Source: a virus. Taken from it: 25,586 nucleotides of DNA. Location: UHGV virus genome UHGV-0108017. One strand, 5' to 3'. Below, piece by piece: positions 1 to 7,688 of the stretch. A model generated the notes under the pieces. It searched no databases. It was not told where the DNA came from and saw nothing but the letters and a program-made list of their open reading frames with translations. The number at the start of each line of letters is the position of its first letter. The stretch's first letter is position 1. Both the position numbers and the translations under genes were made by a program.

Positions 1-54
1 CATATTGGTCATAGCGCTATCCTTCACGGCTGCATTATATAAAGAGGTAAATCA

Positions 55-67
55 TTTGATACTGCTG
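55..67 (+). repeat. left-end repeat copy 1 (TTTGATACTGCTG), candidate transposase-binding site L1
   Basis: 13-bp motif recurs at 159-171 and 201-213 in direct orientation; followed by AAAAATCCGGG, reminiscent of the Mu L1 region as recalled. Confidence 0.5.
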
Positions 68-158
68 AAAAATCCGGGAGGAAAGTGGATCAAACGGGAT
101 TTGATGGGATAAAACAAACAGTTATGACGTAAAACAGTGTTATGCGCACAACATGTGA

Positions 159-171
159 TTTGATACTACTG
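159..171 (+). repeat. left-end repeat copy 2 (TTTGATACTACTG), candidate transposase-binding site L2
   Basis: Exact 13-mer shared with 201-213; 104 bp from copy 1, close to the Mu L1-L2 spacing as recalled. Confidence 0.5.
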
Positions 172-200
172 TCGCAAAGAAAGCTAAAAACGAAAAAATA

Positions 201-213
201 TTTGATACTACTG
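201..213 (+). repeat. left-end repeat copy 3 (TTTGATACTACTG), candidate transposase-binding site L3
   Basis: Exact 13-mer identical to copy 2; 42 bp downstream of it, close to the Mu L2-L3 spacing as recalled. Confidence 0.5.
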
Positions 214-239
214 ATTTCTGCGATTTTAACGTTTTAAAC

Positions 240-281
240 AGGTTAAAAAACCAGCCGCGGGCTATTGGAATTAGCCCGCCT
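240..281 (-). terminator. putative rho-independent terminator of the repressor transcript
   Basis: 8-bp stem GCGGGCTA (257-264) / TAGCCCGC (272-279) with 7-nt loop; on the minus-strand RNA the hairpin is followed by a UUUUUU run (plus-strand A-run 245-250). Stem overlaps the stop codon at 271-273. Confidence 0.45.
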
Positions 282-855
282 TCGATTCTAAACTACTTGA
301 GAGTTTATCGCTTTCAATTTCTGCCAAAATCTCTCTAACTCTTTCATCCGATAAATGATCTAAAAGTAGAGCTGCTGCACGTTTTCGTCCTTCAAGTTGG
401 ATTAGTTCTTGATTCTCTGGTTCAAGTAACCGTGACAAGTACTTAGCTCCATTTAGCGCGAGGATTTTTGATAATCGCTCTGCCTCTGATGCTTCTAAAG
501 CACTTAGTATAGCAAGAAGGCGCTGTAGCGTTATATCTAGGGGCAATTGGACGTTTTCATCTATTTTAGGTGATATTGGTTCTATATCCTCCTTGCCAAA
601 AACAAGCCAATCAATGCTCACCCCTTCTGCAAAAGCAATCTGACCAGCTACTTGTAGAGATGGTGTCGCATCTTTCTCAAAGTAGTTGTTAAGTGTTGAG
701 AACGGTAGCCCCCACGCCTTCGCCACGGCAGTCTTGGAGCGCCCGCGCATTAACATGGCTAGGCGCTCTTTAATGCTTTCTTTTTGAAACACAGGAAAAG
801 AAAAATCACTTTCTTTTTCAGTGCTTCTTTCTTTTCTGTTAACTATATGATTCAT
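271..855 (-). CDS. prophage repressor (Mu c-like by position), HTH DNA-binding protein
   Basis: Only leftward gene, divergent from ner at the left end. Start taken at ATG 853-855 (MNHIVNRKER...); the ORF-track start at 906 is a GTG. HTH-like segment SKTAVAKAWGLPFSTLNNYF. GC much lower than the rest of the window. Confidence 0.6.
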   Translation of the reverse strand: MNHIVNRKERSTEKESDFSFPVFQKESIKERLAMLMRGRSKTAVAKAWGLPFSTLNNYFEKDATPSLQVAGQIAFAEGVSIDWLVFGKEDIEPISPKIDENVQLPLDITLQRLLAILSALEASEAERLSKILALNGAKYLSRLLEPENQELIQLEGRKRAAALLLDHLSDERVREILAEIESDKLSSSLESKAG

Positions 856-995
856 AAAGAAATATCCTTTTGTAGATAAAAACCACCAAAGAAAGAGATA
901 AAACACCTTTACTTTTCTTTTGTAGTGATCAAATATTTATATGTAGAGATTATCCGGCGGTGTTATCCGCGCAGATAACTTTTAAGGATAAACGA
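856..995. promoter_or_regulatory. divergent early promoter / operator region between repressor and ner
   Basis: Repeated TGTAG(A/T)GAT motifs (871-879, 921-929, 942-950), 18-bp near-palindrome GTTATCCGCGCAGATAAC (962-979), IHF-like GATCAAATATTTA (927-939). Confidence 0.55.
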
Positions 996-1232
996 ATGAT
1001 GTCTATAAATGAAGTTGTTAAACAGGACTGGCACCCCGCGCATGTTGTCGCGGCGGTGCATGTAAAAGGTTTTACTTTACGCTCTCTGTCCATTGAAGCC
1101 GGTTTAAACCAGGATTCTTTAAAGAATGCCCTGTACCGCAAATGCCCAAAATATGAGCGCATTATTGCTGATGCTATTGGTGTTGCTCCGGAGGAGATCT
1201 GGCCCAGCCGTTACGCTCGTAAGGTGGTATAA
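996..1232 (+). CDS. ner: Ner-like DNA-binding early regulator
   Basis: ATG 996 with AAGGA 8 nt upstream. Recognisable Ner/Nlp signature (DWHPAHVVAA...GFTLRSLS...IIADAIGVAPEEIWPSRY). Stop overlaps the RBS of A. Confidence 0.8.
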   Translation: MMSINEVVKQDWHPAHVVAAVHVKGFTLRSLSIEAGLNQDSLKNALYRKCPKYERIIADAIGVAPEEIWPSRYARKVV

Positions 1233-1234
1233 AA

Positions 1235-3322
1235 ATGTTTGTATCAGTTAATGAGCTTGTAGGGCTACCAGGTATGCCGGGAACTGCGCAAGGGGTGCGG
1301 TATTCCATAAGGAAACTGGCCTCATCTGAGCATTTCAGGCGCAAACGTGCGGGTTCAAAAACCATTGAATACAGCATCGACTGCCTCCCTCCGATTACAC
1401 AACGGGCGTTACGTGAGCGACATGTAGCTCAACTGATGGCAAGCGCCCCGCAGGAGATAACTACCCAGCCTCCTGTAAAGCGTGAACGCAAACAAAATGT
1501 TGTACAGCCTGTTGAGGCATATCGCGGTTCGCCACAATTGGTAGAAGAGCGTCTGAATGCGCTTACGGAAAATCAACGTAAAGTTGCAGAAGCGCGCATT
1601 GCTCTTGTCTGTGAAGTTCTACGAATTAGCCAGGAGCCGGGATTCAGTTGTGCCAGCGCTATACGTTTTATTGTGTCGCGGTTAGCACAGGGTAACCTGG
1701 AAGAACGCCTGGAATCTTTGGTCATTACTGCTAATGCCCGTAAAGGAAAAGAGCGAACTCTGAGCGCAATTACGCTCAAACGTTGGATAGCTGCGTTTAA
1801 CAAAGCACAGAATGCCGCAGAACGACTGCTGTTACTGGCACCAGGAAAGCGCGACGAAATAAAACCGGAAGAAATTAGCTGGCTGCCTGAATTTCTGGCG
1901 CAGTATCGTCAGGCTAACGGCAGGCCTATGTCTGAAGCCTATGAGGATTTTGTCGCTGATTGGCAGCGTCGCCATGCGGACGAACCATACATGCTGGAGG
2001 TGATGCCTTCCTATGATGTTGTCCGGTATGCCATGAAAAAACTGCCGGAAGTGGTGAAACAAAAAGGGCGCGTTACCGGCAGTGAATACCGTCAGCTTGA
2101 AGGATTCACCCGCCGCGACTGGACAGCTATGCCGGTGAATTATGTCTGGATTGGTGACGGTCACGGTATGAAGCTGAAATGTGCGCATCCGGTTCACGGG
2201 CGTCCATTTTCACCGGAAGTTACGTTTGTGATCGACGGTGGAACCCGGTTTGTGGTTGGCTGGAGTCTTGATCTTGCGGAGAACGTGTTCGCTGTTGCCG
2301 GGGCGATACAACACGGCATTCGCAATCATGGAAAACCATTCCTGTATTACTCGGATAATGGTTCCGGTGAAACGGCAGATATGCTGGATAAAGAGATCGT
2401 CGGGATTCTGCCCCGTCTGGGGATTAACCACCCCACCGGTATTGCGGGAAATCCGCAGGGACGCGGCATTATTGAACGCCTGAACCGAACATTACCGATG
2501 CGTATAGCCAGGAGGTATCGCACCTATTTCGGCAAGGGTGCTGACCGGGAATCGTTGCGAGTACTTAATCGTGATCTGCGTTCAGCGTTTAATGCCCTGC
2601 AACAGGACAAGCCACTGAGCGCCCGTCAGAAAGCCGCAATGCGCGAGCTGCCGTCCTGGTCAGAACTGATTGAGGCTATCCGTGAGGGGGTGGAGTGGTA
2701 CAACAACCGCCCACATTCTGAATTGCCGATGAAACCAAACGGAAAGCATTACAGCCCGGCAGAGTTCAGAAAAAAACGCTTAGCGGAAGAAGACACTGAA
2801 ATTGAGTGGCTGAGTGATCTTGAGCTGCGCGACATGTTCCGCCCGATGGTGGAGCGTCCGGTAAGACGCTGCGAAATCCAGTGGCTGAACAATATTTACT
2901 ACGCGCCAGAGCTGCGTGATGAACATGGTCGCAAAGTACTTATCAGCTATGACATTCACGATGCCGAGCGAATTACGGTACGCCGTAAGGACGGTAGCTT
3001 TATCTGTGAGGCGATATGGAACGGCAATAAACGCGCAGCCTTTCCTGTCACGGCTGAATATCACAAACAACAGCAGCGTATTAAAGGCATGCGCAAGCGT
3101 GCTGAGGAAAAAATTCGTGATGCAGAGGATGAAGGTATTCAGATTCTGGAACACAAACAGGCTGAACCCTGGCTGGATAATGTTTATCGCCCGGTTGGTA
3201 ATACGGTAACCATCCGGCAACAGGATTATGAGGAAGATTACGACGAAGATTATGAACGCGATTTCAGGCTGGGTTTGCAAAAACTTGCAGCCATACAGGA
3301 ACAGGATGATCCGCTGGCCTGA
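1235..3322 (+). CDS. A: DDE transposase (MuA-like)
   Basis: 695 aa immediately after ner. N-terminal winged-helix-like region resembling MuA; candidate catalytic residues D308 (WIGDGH), D375 (YYSDNGSGE), E414 (IIERLNR) by inspection. Confidence 0.85.
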   Translation: MFVSVNELVGLPGMPGTAQGVRYSIRKLASSEHFRRKRAGSKTIEYSIDCLPPITQRALRERHVAQLMASAPQEITTQPPVKRERKQNVVQPVEAYRGSPQLVEERLNALTENQRKVAEARIALVCEVLRISQEPGFSCASAIRFIVSRLAQGNLEERLESLVITANARKGKERTLSAITLKRWIAAFNKAQNAAERLLLLAPGKRDEIKPEEISWLPEFLAQYRQANGRPMSEAYEDFVADWQRRHADEPYMLEVMPSYDVVRYAMKKLPEVVKQKGRVTGSEYRQLEGFTRRDWTAMPVNYVWIGDGHGMKLKCAHPVHGRPFSPEVTFVIDGGTRFVVGWSLDLAENVFAVAGAIQHGIRNHGKPFLYYSDNGSGETADMLDKEIVGILPRLGINHPTGIAGNPQGRGIIERLNRTLPMRIARRYRTYFGKGADRESLRVLNRDLRSAFNALQQDKPLSARQKAAMRELPSWSELIEAIREGVEWYNNRPHSELPMKPNGKHYSPAEFRKKRLAEEDTEIEWLSDLELRDMFRPMVERPVRRCEIQWLNNIYYAPELRDEHGRKVLISYDIHDAERITVRRKDGSFICEAIWNGNKRAAFPVTAEYHKQQQRIKGMRKRAEEKIRDAEDEGIQILEHKQAEPWLDNVYRPVGNTVTIRQQDYEEDYDEDYERDFRLGLQKLAAIQEQDDPLA

Positions 3323-3323
3323 A

Positions 3324-3360
3324 TAAAAAACAGTCCGCGGGAACGGACTGTTAAGTAAAG
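3324..3360 (-). terminator. hairpin between A and B; intrinsic-terminator geometry on the minus strand only
   Basis: Perfect 8-bp stem ACAGTCCG (3330-3337) / CGGACTGT (3344-3351), 6-nt loop; preceded on + by AAAAAA, so the minus-strand RNA has hairpin then U-run. No U-tract on the + strand. Confidence 0.4.
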
Positions 3361-3394
3361 GAAACAAAGCTGATTTGAATAAACGGAGAATAAT

Positions 3395-4327
3395 ATGACC
3401 GATATTAATGATGTTTTCAACACAATTAATGCGCTGATTACTGACGGTGTAAAAACACAAAGCGCTATCGCCAAAGAAGCTGGCGTGTCGGAGGCCACTC
3501 TTTCTGAACTTCGCAAAGGCCGTTACAAAGGCGATACCGAAGGGATGCACAACAAATTACTGATGTGGCATCAGGGCTGGCAGAAAAGTCTGGAGTTGCC
3601 CGGCACCCCACAACTTGTGGAAACACAGACCCTGCGTGATTTGCGTGAACTTTTTCAGACAGTGCGTGTTATGGGGTGTATCAGCGTTCTGGTGGGTGTG
3701 CCGGGGGTAGGAAAAACCGTTGCGGCCCGTGAATACAGTAACCGCGTATCTAATACCTGGATGGTAACCCTTTCCCCTGCACACTCAACGGTGACGGAAT
3801 GTCTGCTGGAACTGGCAGACGCGCTGGGAATTGATAACCCGCAAAGGAATAAAGGCGCGCTGACCCGTGCCATTCGCAAAAAACTGAACGGTACACGCGG
3901 TCTGGTGATTGTGGATGAAGCTGACCACCTGAGCATTGACGGGCTGGAACAATTACGTGCCATTCAGGATGCCACCGGAGTCGGGATGGTATTGATTGGT
4001 AACCCCAGTCAGTTAGCCAAAGCCACACATCGGGGAACGGATGACCTTGCACGTTTGTTCAGTCGTTTCGCCAGGACAAAGCAACTACGTAAAGCCAAAA
4101 AGGCTGACGTGGTGGCAATTGCGAAAGCCTGGGGCATTGAGGGCGAAGATGAATTATCACTCATGCAGAGCATCGCGGAAAAGCCAGGCGCATTGCGTGT
4201 ATTAACTCACACGCTGAATCAGGCGTGGCTGGCAGCCAGCGGGAAAGGCGTTCCTCTGTCCAAAGGCTACATAAAAGCGGCTTTTAAAGAGGTTTACAGC
4301 AACCCGAAATTACTGAACTGGTGGTAA
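3395..4327 (+). CDS. B: transposition ATPase / target DNA activator (MuB-like, AAA+)
   Basis: 310 aa; Walker A GVPGVGKT (K107) and Walker B LVIVDEADHL seen in translation; N-terminal HTH-like region; sits directly after A as in Mu. Confidence 0.85.
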   Translation: MTDINDVFNTINALITDGVKTQSAIAKEAGVSEATLSELRKGRYKGDTEGMHNKLLMWHQGWQKSLELPGTPQLVETQTLRDLRELFQTVRVMGCISVLVGVPGVGKTVAAREYSNRVSNTWMVTLSPAHSTVTECLLELADALGIDNPQRNKGALTRAIRKKLNGTRGLVIVDEADHLSIDGLEQLRAIQDATGVGMVLIGNPSQLAKATHRGTDDLARLFSRFARTKQLRKAKKADVVAIAKAWGIEGEDELSLMQSIAEKPGALRVLTHTLNQAWLAASGKGVPLSKGYIKAAFKEVYSNPKLLNWW

Positions 4328-4341
4328 GGGGATAATAAATA

Positions 4342-4569
4342 ATGATGTCACGAAATATAAAAATGGCAACGGATGCGCAGAACTGGTTACAGGCGCGCGG
4401 GAGTCATGTAAATGAATCATATCTCGGCGTGGCGCGTCCGATTCTTGAAATCACTTACCCACCGGTGGAACTGGTAAAAAACGCGGTCAGAATTATGGAG
4501 CATAAGTCCGGGGTGGCCCGTTCTGTATGGACGGCCCGTTTTAATGGTTGCCAGATAATCTGGAGATAG
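4342..4569 (+). CDS. hypothetical early protein (at the position of kil in Mu)
   Basis: 75-aa ORF with AAGGGG RBS, immediately after B; AT-rich relative to flanking genes. No recognisable motif. Confidence 0.5.
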
Positions 4570-4576
4570 CATTTAA

Positions 4577-4789
4577 ATGATGGTGATAAATATTCACGAT
4601 AATCTGGGAATCAGTAAGTTAATCAACCTTGATAATGTCAGTGTAATGGAAACGACTGTTGAGGGCGGTATTGCTTTTGAATTTATTGATGGTCACCGGC
4701 TGGTCGTTCATGTCGGCAACCATCATCACGCAGAAGATGTGTTTTGGGAACTTAACAAAATCACAAATGCAACACCCGTTAATCAATAA
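4577..4789 (+). CDS. hypothetical early protein
   Basis: 70-aa ORF, tandem ATG start, tightly packed in the early operon; AT-rich; His-rich patch HVGNHHHAED. Confidence 0.45.
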   Translation: MMVINIHDNLGISKLINLDNVSVMETTVEGGIAFEFIDGHRLVVHVGNHHHAEDVFWELNKITNATPVNQ

Positions 4790-4796
4790 GCAGGTA

Positions 4797-5072
4797 ATGA
4801 AAATGGCAAAAGTAATCTTTGAATTTAACAATACAAGAAATATTGAGTTTCAGGATAATGGAGGTTTTGCCGTAAATATGAATGTGCGACTGGAAGAATC
4901 CTCACCTGAGGACCAGACCGGGCCACATGATGTAATGGCAGGCATCATCAAGAGCATGGCTCCTGAAATCATTAAAAAAGCGACCGAGGAGTTGTTGAAA
5001 TCAGCCAGGGAGCTTGGGCTGGAAGCCGAGGGGGAATTATTCAGCTATAACCCGAATGCAGCCAGACATTAA
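4797..5072 (+). CDS. hypothetical early protein
   Basis: Start chosen at ATG 4797 (or 4803) after the stop of the previous gene; the ORF-track entry 4659 overlaps the previous gene. Acidic C-terminal half. Confidence 0.45.
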   Translation: MKMAKVIFEFNNTRNIEFQDNGGFAVNMNVRLEESSPEDQTGPHDVMAGIIKSMAPEIIKKATEELLKSARELGLEAEGELFSYNPNAARH

Positions 5073-5092
5073 TTCACAAAGGAACGCTGACA

Positions 5093-5512
5093 ATGAACGT
5101 CAAAATCCGAAATGAAATTCAGGCATTAATCCGAATTCAGGAACGCAATAACAACGGTGGTGAATTACGCGAGTTTATTTGCGCCCGAAAAGTTGATGAT
5201 TGTGGTGAAAAGACTTACCTGATTGCTTTCGACCATTACAGCATCTGTGCGCGTTATTGCGGCGAAAGCATATCCCGCGCCATTGCATTTGGCGGTGCGT
5301 TCAACGTGGATTTATGGGAGTACGTCATGGACCGGGAATACATCTGCGCATCAGACCCTGAAGCCCGTGAAATGTGGCAGCGTATCTGGCGCGATTACCG
5401 GTTAATGGCAAAAGGCTGGGCGCGCTGCTGTTATTCCTCGCTTGCCCTGAAAGCGGTTCAGTTATCGCTGCGGCATATTCCGGCATCACTGCGCGAGCCT
5501 CTGCTGTACTGA
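5093..5512 (+). CDS. hypothetical cysteine-rich early protein
   Basis: 139 aa, AAAGGA RBS; multiple Cys (CARK, DDCGEK, SICARYCGE, YICASD, ARCC); stop overlaps the next start (TGAATG). Confidence 0.5.
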   Translation: MNVKIRNEIQALIRIQERNNNGGELREFICARKVDDCGEKTYLIAFDHYSICARYCGESISRAIAFGGAFNVDLWEYVMDREYICASDPEAREMWQRIWRDYRLMAKGWARCCYSSLALKAVQLSLRHIPASLREPLLY

Positions 5513-5812
5513 ATGGTGGCTGACATGAAGTGTAATCGTAAGCGCTGGTCACGCGAAGACCGGGAATTTATCGAAGCCAACGTCGGGAAAATGACCGTTG
5601 AAGAAATGGCGGAAAAACTGAAAGTCGCCACAACCGCCCTCCGGGCACATGCCAGAAGGCACGGAATATCATTGTGTGTATACCGAATCAGTGAACACGA
5701 CAAATATTTATGTCGTGAACTTTATAAAGAAGGGCTGGATATTCATGTCATTGCCCGAAAGATGGAATTAAGCAATCGAGCTGTATCCAGCATTGTATAC
5801 AGCGGATATTAA
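5513..5812 (+). CDS. hypothetical early protein with putative HTH-like segment
   Basis: 99 aa (alternative ATG at 5525); segment WSREDREFIEANVGKMTVEEMAEKLKVATTALRAHARRHGIS looks like a small helical DNA-binding fold; translationally coupled to the upstream gene. Confidence 0.45.
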   Translation: MVADMKCNRKRWSREDREFIEANVGKMTVEEMAEKLKVATTALRAHARRHGISLCVYRISEHDKYLCRELYKEGLDIHVIARKMELSNRAVSSIVYSGY

Positions 5813-5831
5813 TTAACAGGAGCTTTAATTT

Positions 5832-6356
5832 ATGGCTAAACCAGCAAAACGCATCAAAAGTGCCGCAGCGGCTTATGTGCCACAAAACCGCGATGCGGTG
5901 ATTACCGATATTAAACGCATCGGGGATTTACAGCGCGAAGCATCACGTCTGGAAACGGAAATGAATGATGCCATCGCGGAAATTACGGAGAAATTTGCAG
6001 CCCGGATTGCACCGATTAAAACCGATATTGAAACCCTTTCAAAAGGCGTTCAGGGATGGTGTGAAGCGAACCGCGACGAACTGACGAACGGCGGCAAAGT
6101 GAAGACGGCGAATCTTGTCACCGGTGATGTATCGTGGCGGGTCCGTCCACCATCAGTAAGTATTCGTGGTATGGATGCAGTGATGGAAACGCTGGAGCGT
6201 CTTGGCCTGCAACGCTTTATTCGCACGAAGCAGGAAATCAACAAGGAGGCGATTTTACTGGAGCCAAAAGCGGTCGCAGGTGTTGCCGGAATTACGGTTA
6301 AATCGGGAATTGAAGATTTTTCCATTATTCCGTTTGAACAGGAAGCCGGTATTTAA
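5832..6356 (+). CDS. gam: Gam, host-nuclease inhibitor (Ku-like DNA end-binding protein)
   Basis: 174 aa; translation (MAKPAKRIKSAAAAYVPQNRDAVITDIKRIG...) matches Mu Gam as I recall it, essentially end to end; AGGAG RBS 9 nt upstream. Confidence 0.85.
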   Translation: MAKPAKRIKSAAAAYVPQNRDAVITDIKRIGDLQREASRLETEMNDAIAEITEKFAARIAPIKTDIETLSKGVQGWCEANRDELTNGGKVKTANLVTGDVSWRVRPPSVSIRGMDAVMETLERLGLQRFIRTKQEINKEAILLEPKAVAGVAGITVKSGIEDFSIIPFEQEAGI

Positions 6357-6398
6357 TACCACCATTAATATTTAATTAATTCACATTCTTTTAATTAT

Positions 6399-6428
6399 GG
6401 CGCGATGCGTCAGGGGATTGCTCGCGCC
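6399..6428 (+). other. GC-rich stem-loop in an AT-rich intergenic region (no U-tract)
   Basis: 7-bp stem GGCGCGA (6399-6405) / TCGCGCC (6422-6428), 16-nt loop, within the 98-bp gap between gam and the next ORF; TTAATTAA palindrome just upstream. Confidence 0.3.
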
Positions 6429-6454: not shown

Positions 6455-6994
6455 ATGGTTGATGCAAAAATTCTGAATGGTGTCAGCACATTATTACGGG
6501 CTTACGGACGCCTGACCTGTGGAGTTCTGGCTGAAAAAATGAATATGCTGCCCTCGTCAATGGTGTATTTCCTGCGTGATGCGGTTGATGCCGGAGTGCT
6601 CACCGAATGCAACGGATTTTATGACGTACCGCGTCCCCGTACAGAGCAGCCTGTAAGACGAAACGCAACTGAGCAGCCTGCTGTTGATGATGCGGTGTGG
6701 TGCAACTGGCGTCGCTCATTACCCTGGGTGGAAGGTAATACCATCCCTGCGCTGGCAAAAGAGTTTGCGACGGGCGTGCTGACCTGTGAGTCAGTCCACA
6801 TTGTTGCTGAGGTGGATAACAGAATGTGCGAACAGGGAATGCCCCGTTTTGTGATGGCTTATATCGATATCCGGCTGGGGCGTTTTATTTGCAGTTCAAG
6901 CGCCTGGAATATCACCGACCATGTACTGCGTTATCTCATCATTGATTTTTCATCAGCACCGGGTGTGGTGCAGGAGGCTGGTTGTGAAATTTGA
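6455..6994 (+). CDS. hypothetical early protein, possible winged-helix N-terminus
   Basis: 179 aa; AGAGGA RBS 7 nt upstream; N-terminal LLRAYGRLTCGVLAEKMNMLPSSMVYFLRDAVDAGVLTE is wHTH-like by eye. Confidence 0.5.
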   Translation: MVDAKILNGVSTLLRAYGRLTCGVLAEKMNMLPSSMVYFLRDAVDAGVLTECNGFYDVPRPRTEQPVRRNATEQPAVDDAVWCNWRRSLPWVEGNTIPALAKEFATGVLTCESVHIVAEVDNRMCEQGMPRFVMAYIDIRLGRFICSSSAWNITDHVLRYLIIDFSSAPGVVQEAGCEI

Positions 6995-7688
6995 AGACTG
7001 GGGTATTGATAAAAGTTGTGGCCGGGACGTCCTGGTGTACAAAAGCTGTAGCGTGATTGAAGGAGAAGATGCCTGGCAGGTTCTGGATATACTTCGTTCT
7101 GCTTTATGCAGAGCTGGCTATGTTACGCCAGCGTCAGTTAATGGCGGAACTGCCACTACCTGTATCAGAAAGCAACTTTATAGTTTTTATACAGCCTACA
7201 ACCGATGGTTAAAGAATGGGGCAATGGAGACGGGCGATGATGTATTTACCCGGGCTGCCGGATTATGTGCCAATGCTTACGATTATTTTGAATCAACCGG
7301 TGCAGACAGTGAAGCCGCATTAGAACAATTACATGCGGACTTTATCTCAGCAGGGCTGAATGAGAAATTGCCATTTAACCGGGACAGCAAACATTACAGA
7401 AACGAAAGCAAATTGGCCAGATGCCACCAGAATTCAGCACGTGTGGCATGGGTTGAAAAACACTGTATTAGTTCTGATTCAGAAATAACGGGGAAAAAGA
7501 CAGTCGGTGAAACATCGTATTCGTGGCTGGGGAAATTTACCACGGTGAAACAGGAATGCCCGACCTGCGGTAATGAATCCCCTGAATATCTGAAAGAGTG
7601 TCCCCATTGTGGCGGGCAGAAATGCAACCACTGTGATATGGGCGATGACACGGCGTGCATGAATTGTGAAGGTGAACAGAATGAATAA
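6984..7688 (+). CDS. hypothetical protein with C-terminal 4x CxxC zinc-ribbon cluster
   Basis: Start proposed at GTG 6984, 6 nt after AGGAGG (6972-6977); the ORF track extends to 6921 inside the upstream gene. C-terminus CPTCGN...CPHCGGQKCNHCD...CMNCEGE. Confidence 0.5.
   Translation: MKFEDWGIDKSCGRDVLVYKSCSVIEGEDAWQVLDILRSALCRAGYVTPASVNGGTATTCIRKQLYSFYTAYNRWLKNGAMETGDDVFTRAAGLCANAYDYFESTGADSEAALEQLHADFISAGLNEKLPFNRDSKHYRNESKLARCHQNSARVAWVEKHCISSDSEITGKKTVGETSYSWLGKFTTVKQECPTCGNESPEYLKECPHCGGQKCNHCDMGDDTACMNCEGEQNE

What the first reader, a model, noticed from the sequence alone, without database searches (positions are those of the whole stretch)
5093..5512. Cysteine-rich 139-aa early protein of unknown function
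Nine cysteines in scattered pairs (CxxxxxxC, CxxxC, CC) with no obvious zinc-ribbon register, encoded just upstream of a small HTH-like protein and gam. Possibly a metal-binding inhibitor or small enzyme domain.
Basis: seen in the sequence. Interest (0 to 1): 0.4.

Follow-up and report, generated by a model that had tools for sequence, protein, structure and literature searches.

The report
Phage Mu gp8 (E7) orphan gene
This is the long-catalogued but still uncharacterised early gene gp8 (E7) of a Mu/D108-type transposable phage; its cysteines are mostly not conserved in relatives, so the metal-binding idea has no support and the finding is ordinary.

Summary
The ORF at 5093..5512 (+) is real and 139 aa long. 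It has 7 cysteines, not 9. It is 100% identical in protein to gp08 of phage D108 and 133/139 identical to gp8 (old name E7) of phage Mu. It lies in the semi-essential early region, in the order kil-gp6-gp7-gp8-gp9(HTH)-gam.

It is under purifying selection (dN/dS 0.11-0.38), so it is a functional gene. The family (PHROG 3690, unknown function) is tiny. An exhaustive profile search of 1.84 billion representative proteins found only Mu-type orthologs, plus a short form (105-113 aa, about 32% identity) in related Mu-like enterobacterial prophages.

Cysteine counts range from 1 to 8 across the aligned homologs. Only C52 and C56 are invariant in the Mu-type clade, and no cysteine is conserved across the family.

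There is no Pfam, NCBIfam, PADLOC or PDB match. AlphaFold confidence is low (pLDDT 47-54) and Foldseek found nothing.

Most likely this is a facultative accessory early protein that acts by binding a host or phage partner, without a cofactor. That mechanism is inferred, not shown. The gene is already known and of low interest.

The parts
5093..5512 (+). CDS of the gp8 (E7) ortholog, 139 aa plus stop
   Evidence: ORF list and translation. 139/139 aa identical to D108 gp08 with 3 synonymous differences, and 133/139 identical to Mu gp8. Annotated Mup08 / 'gp8; previously called E7' in NC_000929. Full-length PHROG 3690 match, E 3.7e-97. dN/dS 0.11-0.38.
5079..5083 (+). Shine-Dalgarno-like AAGGA, 9 nt before the ATG
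   Evidence: Read directly from the sequence.
5216..5263 (+). Codons 42-57 (YLIAFDHYSICARYCG): the most constrained segment, holding H48 and the only invariant cysteines, C52 (5246-5248) and C56 (5258-5260)
   Evidence: Aggregated pN/pS 0.04. Invariant columns in A2. Predicted end of strand 2 plus helix 48-56. D47, Y49 and A53 are conserved family-wide; H48, C52 and C56 are not.
5180..5215 (+). Codons 30-41: fast-evolving tip of the predicted beta-hairpin, containing the non-conserved C30 and C37
   Evidence: Aggregated pN/pS 0.61. Substitutions C30F and C37H/Y among orthologs.
5133..5138 (+). EcoRI site inside gp8 codons 14-16; it corresponds to Mu coordinate 5102
   Evidence: Pattern search in the window and in NC_000929. 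That this is the classical '5.1 kb' left-end EcoRI site of Mu is my own recollection, not a tool result.
5513..5812 (+). gp9 (E8) ortholog, a 99-aa HTH-like protein; its ATG directly abuts the gp8 TGA
   Evidence: PHROG 323 'transcriptional regulator, D5-like', E 6.9e-29. Only sub-threshold HTH Pfam hits.
5832..6356 (+). gam (host nuclease inhibitor), 174 aa
   Evidence: Annotation of the matching D108 and Mu genes.
4342..4569 (+). kil, first gene of the semi-essential early region after B
   Evidence: Annotation of the matching D108 and Mu genes.
4577..4789 (+). gp6 (E5) ortholog, 70 aa, unknown function
   Evidence: PHROG 3375. D108/Mu annotation.
4803..5072 (+). gp7, D108-type allele, 89 aa; it occupies a variable slot immediately upstream of gp8
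   Evidence: PHROG 2230. D108 gp07 coordinates. The Mu record covers less of 4300-6400 (74%) than D108 does (88%), and I infer that the shortfall lies in the gp6/gp7 stretch.

Best explanation
The ORF is the ortholog of bacteriophage Mu gp8 (Mup08, formerly E7; D108 gp08). It is a facultative accessory gene of the semi-essential early region. It is co-transcribed with A, B, kil, gp9 and gam on the long early transcript and translated from its own Shine-Dalgarno. The product is a soluble protein of about 16 kDa, mildly basic (pI about 8.2). Its predicted secondary structure is an N-terminal amphipathic helix, a beta-hairpin and five to six further helices. It shows no enzyme, metal-binding or DNA-binding signature. 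The family-wide conserved residues are hydrophobic, aromatic and charged (E8, I9, A11, L12, R14, N19, G23, F28, I29, G38, I44, D47, Y49, A53, F70, D73, W75, R92, W95, R103), not cysteines. The high cysteine count is therefore an allele-specific accident of single-base changes tolerated in the reducing cytoplasm. The most likely mode of action is inferred, not shown: like its neighbours Kil, Gam and gp7/Gnarl2, it probably works stoichiometrically early in lytic growth by binding a host (or phage transposition/replication) macromolecule. The invariant 42-57 segment would be the core or interface, and the fast-evolving hairpin tip (30-41) and residues 58-68 would be adaptable surface. Rough confidence by step: identity as Mu gp8 about 0.99; real selected gene about 0.97; cysteines not the defining functional feature about 0.85; cofactor-free binding effector about 0.45.
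For: Identity: megablast matches D108 and Mu at 97-99%. The D108, Mu and M64097 records annotate the matching gene as gp8/E7. The protein is 139/139 identical to D108 gp08 and 133/139 to Mu gp8. The PHROG 3690 match is full-length.

Real gene: pairwise dN/dS is 0.11-0.38 at dS 0.13-0.72. The gene is retained in 54 of 5426 complete E. coli genomes, always chromosomal.

Operon: no + strand promoter-like or terminator-like site lies between kil and gam. The literature states that the SE region is part of the long early transcript with A and B (PMC3325207).

Cysteines not conserved: alignments A1, A2, A3 and A5 and per-sequence counts of 1-8.

Narrow accessory family: the exhaustive HMMER search gave 11 hits in 1.84e9 representatives. 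No GTDB species-representative genome carries the gene. The short-form homologs sit between B and kil in Mu-like prophages. A phage about 85% identical in DNA over the matched 67%, Klebsiella Kp4866-3, goes straight from B to kil without it.

No enzymatic or metal signature: Pfam, NCBIfam, PADLOC and PDB sequence searches gave nothing.

Precedent for binding-type effectors next door: Mu E6/Mup07 is gnarl2 (PMC12373910). Deleting the whole SE region abolishes killing of infected cells (PMC3325207).
Against: No direct evidence for any partner or phenotype. No paper in the searchable library assigns a function to gp8/E7. The structure models are low-confidence (pLDDT 47 and 54), so neither 'no catalytic pocket' nor 'no metal site' can be argued from structure. 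C52, C56 and H48 are strictly invariant in the Mu-type clade within the most constrained segment, which leaves room for a clade-specific metal or redox role. The invariant acidic residues E8, D47 and D73 could in principle be catalytic.
Confidence: 0.6

Rival explanations
1. Clade-specific metal- or redox-active protein. In the Mu-type (139-aa) proteins, H48, C52 and C56, perhaps with C30 or across a dimer, bind Zn or form a redox-sensitive disulfide that is needed for folding or regulation. This is the surviving core of the first reader's idea.
For: H48, C52 and C56 are invariant in all 13 full-length Mu-type sequences. They lie in the most constrained segment, pN/pS 0.04. Their i/i+4/i+8 spacing puts them on one face of the predicted helix 48-56. 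C30 is present in 10 of the 13.
Against: The short-form homologs have W/R, Y/S/Q and G/E/M at these three positions and still keep the rest of the core, so the fold does not need them. C30 is F in three otherwise intact orthologs. Three ligands at i, i+4 and i+8 of one helix cannot close a single tetrahedral site (geometric inference). There is no CxxC/CxxH knuckle and no zinc-finger Pfam hit. The other four cysteines vary freely.
Confidence: 0.12
2. Accessory factor of transposition or replication: for example, the molecular identity of a classical but never ORF-assigned SE-region phenotype such as arm (amplified replication of Mu) or cim. It would act on MuB, MuA or DNA rather than on a host defence or physiology target.
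For: In the short-form lineage the gene directly follows B and overlaps kil. Conserved Arg and aromatic residues (R14, R92, R103, W75, W95, Y49) are compatible with nucleic-acid contact. The EcoRI site at Mu 5102 lies inside gp8, so left-end EcoRI constructs would lack intact gp8. The link to the classical constructs is from my memory. arm, cim and sot are listed for this region without ORF assignment (PMC4553209).
Against: No HTH or other DNA-binding domain was detected. The gene is missing from a close relative, Kp4866-3, that keeps A, B, kil and gp9. It has no detectable homolog outside enterobacterial Mu-type (pro)phages: the exhaustive search found no homolog in any other context. That search would have included other transposable phages, though I did not examine them individually. 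The mapping of arm and cim relative to gp8 could not be checked in the available literature.
Confidence: 0.2
3. Small enzyme that uses the invariant acidic residues (E8, D47, D73), for example a nuclease or a modifying activity.
For: Three acidic residues are invariant over about 30% identity, including a conserved F-[ND]-x-D-[LR]-W motif.
Against: The conserved core is only about 105 residues and is predicted to be mostly helical. There is no similarity to any enzyme family by sequence. Foldseek gave no match at E <= 0.001, but the query model was low-confidence.
Confidence: 0.05
4. Non-functional or decaying ORF with no selected function.
For: Several database entries are frameshifted or truncated copies: P0024 and P0007 read into the alternative frames listed, and P0025-P0027 are truncated. 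The region is called 'semi-essential'.
Against: dN/dS is 0.11-0.38 across nine alleles with dS up to 0.72. Length is preserved at 138-141 aa in 13 lineages. The core is recognisably conserved at about 32% identity in a second lineage.
Confidence: 0.02

Closest known systems
Bacteriophage Mu gp8 (Mup08, NP_050612; old name E7) / D108 gp08 (YP_003335756); PHROG 3690
   Same: Same gene: 139/139 aa identity to D108 and 133/139 to Mu. Same length, same position between gp7 and gp9/gam, same early operon.
   Different: Nothing material. This copy differs from D108 by 3 synonymous substitutions. It sits in a mosaic phage whose left end (c/ner/A/B) resembles Yersinia phages vB_YpM_5/6.
Short-form gp8-like proteins of Mu-like enterobacterial prophages (P0029, P0030, P0032; 105-113 aa)
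   Same: Homologous over residues 1-108 at about 30-33% identity (profile E 2.6e-6 and 3.6e-4 in the exhaustive search; E 1e-8 to 1e-10 against PHROG 3690). Also early-region genes in a B/kil/HTH/gam neighbourhood.
   Different: They lack the C-terminal 30 residues and lack every one of the seven cysteines. They sit between B and kil, overlapping the kil start, rather than after gp7.
Other small semi-essential-region effectors of Mu: Kil, Gam, and gp7/E6 (= Gnarl2 of Silas et al.)
   Same: Same operon, timing, size class and dispensability. The neighbouring gp6/gp7 slot is similarly patchy in content. This is an analogy of lifestyle ('works like'), not homology.
   Different: No sequence similarity to any of them and no paralog in the window. 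No target or phenotype is known for gp8.
Zinc-ribbon / treble-clef small phage proteins, such as the Cys-rich Mu gp13 (E14) tail of the ORF at 6921..7688
   Same: Small, Cys-containing early-region proteins of the same phage.
   Different: gp13 has regular CxxC pairs (CPTC...CPHC...CNHC...CMNC). gp8 has no CxxC/CxxH knuckles, and its cysteines are not conserved.

Membership tests
Mu gp8/E7 family (PHROG 3690) | Full-length, significant match to the family profile | tested here: met
   PHROG 3690, E 3.7e-97, residues 1-139 on profile positions 1-139 of 139.
Mu gp8/E7 family (PHROG 3690) | Near-identity to the reference proteins of Mu and D108 | tested here: met
   139/139 identical to D108 gp08 and 133/139 to Mu gp8. 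DNA identity 97.6-98.7%.
Mu gp8/E7 family (PHROG 3690) | Syntenic position in the early operon, between gp7 and gp9/gam | tested here: met
   Gene order kil-gp6-gp7-gp8-gp9-gam in the window, as in D108, Mu, SfMu and the E. coli E300082 prophage.
Structural zinc-binding domains (zinc ribbon, treble clef, zinc finger) | Two pairs of closely spaced ligands (CxxC/CxxH knuckles) | tested here: not met
   The spacings are Cx6C, Cx3C, CC and a lone C. There is no CxxC or CxxH.
Structural zinc-binding domains (zinc ribbon, treble clef, zinc finger) | Four metal ligands conserved across homologs | tested here: not met
   Only C52 and C56 (plus H48) are invariant in the Mu-type clade. No Cys or His is conserved family-wide.
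Structural zinc-binding domains (zinc ribbon, treble clef, zinc finger) | Match to a curated metal-binding domain model or solved structure | tested here: not met
   No Pfam or NCBIfam hit, even at E up to 10 across 16 family members. No PDB sequence or profile hit.
Structural zinc-binding domains (zinc ribbon, treble clef, zinc finger) | Bound metal in the purified protein | not testable with these tools
   Requires ICP-MS, PAR assay or a structure.
HTH / winged-helix DNA-binding proteins | Recognisable HTH domain | tested here: not met
   gp8 has no HTH family hit. The neighbour gp9 has several weak ones. The predicted secondary-structure order helix-hairpin-helices is not the winged-helix order, though the models are low-confidence.
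Known anti-defence or defence-associated proteins (PADLOC models; Silas et al. accessory-gene set) | Match to a catalogued model or inclusion in a functional screen | tested here: not met
   No PADLOC hit. Neither the gp8 sequence motif nor its accession is found in the held supplementary files of PMC12373910, which do list the neighbour Mup07 as gnarl2.

The most novel reading that the evidence does not exclude
gp8 could be a host-takeover or counter-defence effector with a fold not yet represented in structure databases. Alternatively, it could be the missing ORF behind a classical unassigned Mu early phenotype (arm or cim). In the Mu-type clade the invariant His48/Cys52/Cys56 helix face would then serve as the interaction surface or as a dimer-bridging metal or redox site. 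The fast-evolving hairpin and the presence/absence polymorphism between near-identical phages are compatible with an arms-race gene.
Probability: 0.25. Interest if true: 0.45.

Novelty: already known. Interest (0 to 1): 0.15.

Why it matters
Mu is a model phage, yet most of the roughly 14 ORFs in its semi-essential early region still have no assigned function (PMC3325207, PMC3820752). Assigning gp8 a partner or phenotype would fill one of those gaps, and it might explain part of the host killing or replication enhancement attributed to the region. As it stands, the finding adds little. The gene has been catalogued for decades, and the feature that drew attention, the cysteines, is not conserved.
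- a short-form sister lineage of the family, in which the gene sits between B and kil;
- a map of constrained against fast-evolving segments of the protein;
- the observation that the EcoRI site at Mu 5102 cuts inside the gene.

Tried and rejected
1. Domain and structure-by-sequence searches. Pfam, NCBIfam and PADLOC on gp8 gave no hits. Pfam at E up to 10 on all 16 family members gave one stray VHS hit. PDB phmmer and profile hmmsearch gave only noise.

2. Structure prediction. Two AlphaFold2 runs, with 13-sequence and 16-sequence alignments, reached pLDDT 47.2 and 53.9. That is too low for fold inference. Foldseek against PDB and BFVD gave no hit at E <= 0.001; the best was 0.045 to an unnamed viral protein at TM 0.34. 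I treat these as uninformative, not as evidence for a new fold.

3. Homolog searches. The word-indexed search and the exhaustive profile search together show the family is tiny. P0024, at an apparent 45% identity, was rejected as a distant homolog. It is a frameshifted copy whose middle matches the alternative frames at 5223..5405 and 5374..5523.

4. GTDB species-representative genomes. Two scans found no relative.

5. Literature. Six of the eight full-text searches used were aimed at gp8/E7/Mup08 or at semi-essential-region functions, and none found an assigned function for gp8. One search was a poorly chosen query and returned immunology papers. PMC13243611 and PMC12236752 turned out to be irrelevant.

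6. Paralogs. phmmer of gp8 against all six-frame ORFs of the window found none.

7. The antisense ORF at 5325..5552 ('D-75' in M64097) was considered and dismissed. It is a mechanical ORF opposite a gene that is under purifying selection in the + frame.

Full report
**1. Observation.**
The + strand ORF runs from ATG 5093 to TGA 5510-5512 and encodes 139 aa. An AAGGA lies 9 nt upstream of the ATG. The protein has seven cysteines (30, 37, 52, 56, 85, 112, 113), not nine, and two histidines (48, 128). The quoted spacings Cx6C, Cx3C and CC are present, and there is no CxxC knuckle. At 5.0% Cys it is the most Cys-rich of 29 + strand ORFs in the window. The background is 0.98%, giving binomial P about 5e-4 uncorrected. 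The stated context is right: a 99-aa HTH-like protein starts at 5513 and gam is at 5832..6356.

**2. Identity.**
The 4300-6400 region matches Escherichia phages D108 and Mu at 97-99% DNA identity. In those records the matching gene is gp8 (EP-D108_gp08; Mup08, 'gp8; previously called E7'; E7 in M64097), annotated as a hypothetical protein. The window protein is 139/139 identical to D108 gp08, with three synonymous differences, and 133/139 identical to Mu gp8. It matches PHROG 3690 ('unknown function') end to end at E 3.7e-97.

The window as a whole is a Muvirus genome segment running from the left end to the tail genes. It is a mosaic: 1-4330 resembles Yersinia phages vB_YpM_5/6, and the rest resembles D108 and Mu.

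**3. Is it a real gene?**
Yes. Across nine alleles, pairwise Nei-Gojobori dN/dS is 0.11-0.38 at dS 0.13-0.72. Length is preserved at 138-141 aa in 13 sequence clusters. There is no + strand promoter-like or terminator-like site between kil and gam. This fits the published statement that the semi-essential region is part of the long early transcript with A and B (PMC3325207).

**4. The cysteines.**
Among the 13 full-length Mu-type sequences (71-99% identity to the window protein), only C52 and C56 are invariant. C30 is F in three of them. C37 is H or Y in most. C85 is S in most. C112 is G and C113 is T or I in many. Per-protein counts in this group run from 2 to 8.

The exhaustive HMMER profile search of 1.84 billion representatives returned only 11 proteins. 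Two of them (P0029, P0030), plus P0032 from a second indexed search, are genuine distant homologs of 105-113 aa at 30-33% identity. They also match PHROG 3690 at E 1e-8 to 1e-10. None has a cysteine at any of the seven positions.

The family-invariant residues are E8, I9, A11, L12, R14, N19, G23, F28, I29, G38, I44, D47, Y49, A53, F70, D73, W75, R92, W95 and R103.

What remains is a clade-specific pattern. H48, C52 and C56 are spaced i/i+4/i+8 on the predicted helix 48-56. They lie in the most constrained segment, residues 42-57, with aggregated pN/pS 0.04. By contrast the hairpin 30-41 scores 0.61 and residues 58-68 score 0.53.

**5. Distribution and context.**
The gene is present in 54 of 5426 complete E. 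coli genomes, always chromosomal and always annotated 'hypothetical protein'. It also occurs in Mu-type phages of Shigella and Yersinia and in Salmonella records. No GTDB species-representative genome carries it.

In Mu-type genomes the order is B-kil-[variable gp6/gp7 slot]-gp8-gp9(HTH)-gam. In the short-form lineage the order is B-gp8like-kil-HTH-gam, with gp8like overlapping the start of kil. Klebsiella phage Kp4866-3 matches one of those short-form loci at about 85% DNA identity over 67% of the query. It goes directly from B to kil and has no gp8-like gene. gp8 is therefore a facultative accessory gene confined to enterobacterial Mu-like phages.

Several database entries are frameshifted or truncated copies in prophages.

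**6. Function.**
Nothing was detected with Pfam, NCBIfam, PADLOC or PDB sequence and profile searches. AlphaFold2 gave low-confidence models (pLDDT 47 and 54). Both models agree on the secondary structure:
- helix 3-18;
- hairpin about 29-36 / 39-46;
- helices 48-56, 58-66, 72-81, 89-110 and 116-126.

Foldseek found nothing significant. No paper in the searchable library assigns a function to gp8.

The literature does say three relevant things. The SE region holds about 14 ORFs of largely unknown function. Deleting the whole region restores viability of cells infected by a replication-defective Mu (PMC3325207 and PMC3820752). The adjacent Mu gene E6/Mup07 is gnarl2, a small non-enzymatic effector linked to O-antigen/LPS modification (PMC12373910).

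By analogy and by exclusion, I judge a cofactor-free, stoichiometric binding effector acting early in lytic growth to be the most likely mechanism (about 0.45). The rivals are:
- an arm/cim-type transposition or replication accessory role (about 0.2);
- a clade-specific metal or redox site (about 0.12);
- a small enzyme (about 0.05);
- a non-functional ORF (about 0.02).

All mechanistic steps are inferred. Only identity, selection, conservation pattern and context are shown.

**7. A practical detail.**
The EcoRI site at window 5133 (Mu coordinate 5102) lies in codons 14-16 of gp8. From my own knowledge, not a tool result, this is the classical 5.1-kb left-end EcoRI site of Mu. Left-end EcoRI clones and some mini-Mu derivatives would therefore carry a truncated gp8. 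This matters when re-reading the old mapping of SE-region phenotypes.

**8. Verdict.**
This is a known, catalogued, still uncharacterised Mu early gene. The metal-binding interpretation is not supported as a family property. Novelty: already known. Interest: low (0.15).

Noticed in passing
window 6921..7688 (+): A 255-aa ORF whose last ~59 residues are Mu gp13/E14 (regular CPTC...CPHC...CNHC...CMNC pattern, 96-100% identical). Its N-terminal ~196 residues are not Mu/D108 gp12. Residues 22-252 match PHROG 6418 (231 aa, unknown function) end to end. The gp12 slot therefore carries a different module, read in frame with the Cys-rich gp13 part.
   Followed up: partly
window 4803..5072 (+) and loci L002, L016: The slot just upstream of gp8 is variable. 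The window has the D108-type gp7 (PHROG 2230). Mu has E6/Mup07, which Silas et al. named gnarl2. The E. coli E300082 prophage has a single 82-aa gene in place of gp6+gp7.
   Followed up: partly
window 1..4330: The left end (repressor, ner, A, B) matches Yersinia phages vB_YpM_5/6 at ~98% but is not covered by the D108 or Mu megablast matches, which start at 4330. The phage is a mosaic with a recombination junction at about the B/kil boundary.
   Followed up: no
window 5133..5138 (Mu 5102): One of only two EcoRI sites in the window lies inside gp8 codons 14-16. From memory, this corresponds to Mu's classical 5.1-kb left-end EcoRI site, so classical left-end clones would truncate gp8.
   Followed up: partly
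proteins P0024, P0007, P0025-P0027, P0003: Database copies of gp8 include frameshifted and truncated forms whose out-of-frame parts match the window's alternative frames at 5223..5405 and 5374..5523. There is also one 231-aa product that reads a gp7-like N-terminal part into gp8 on a 1.2-kb contig. These look like prophage decay or assembly errors.
   Followed up: partly
L018 (Klebsiella phage Kp4866-3) 4525..5687: This relative of the short-form locus L004 lacks the gp8-like gene (B is followed directly by kil). After the gp9-like HTH gene it carries a 206-aa ORF where L004 has the 174-aa Gam. That ORF was not analysed further.
   Followed up: no
window 6455..6994 (+): gp11 (Pfam Gp11_C, E 1.5e-39) also has 7 cysteines (3.9%). 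Several early-region proteins of this phage are moderately Cys-rich, so gp8 is not a lone outlier.
   Followed up: no
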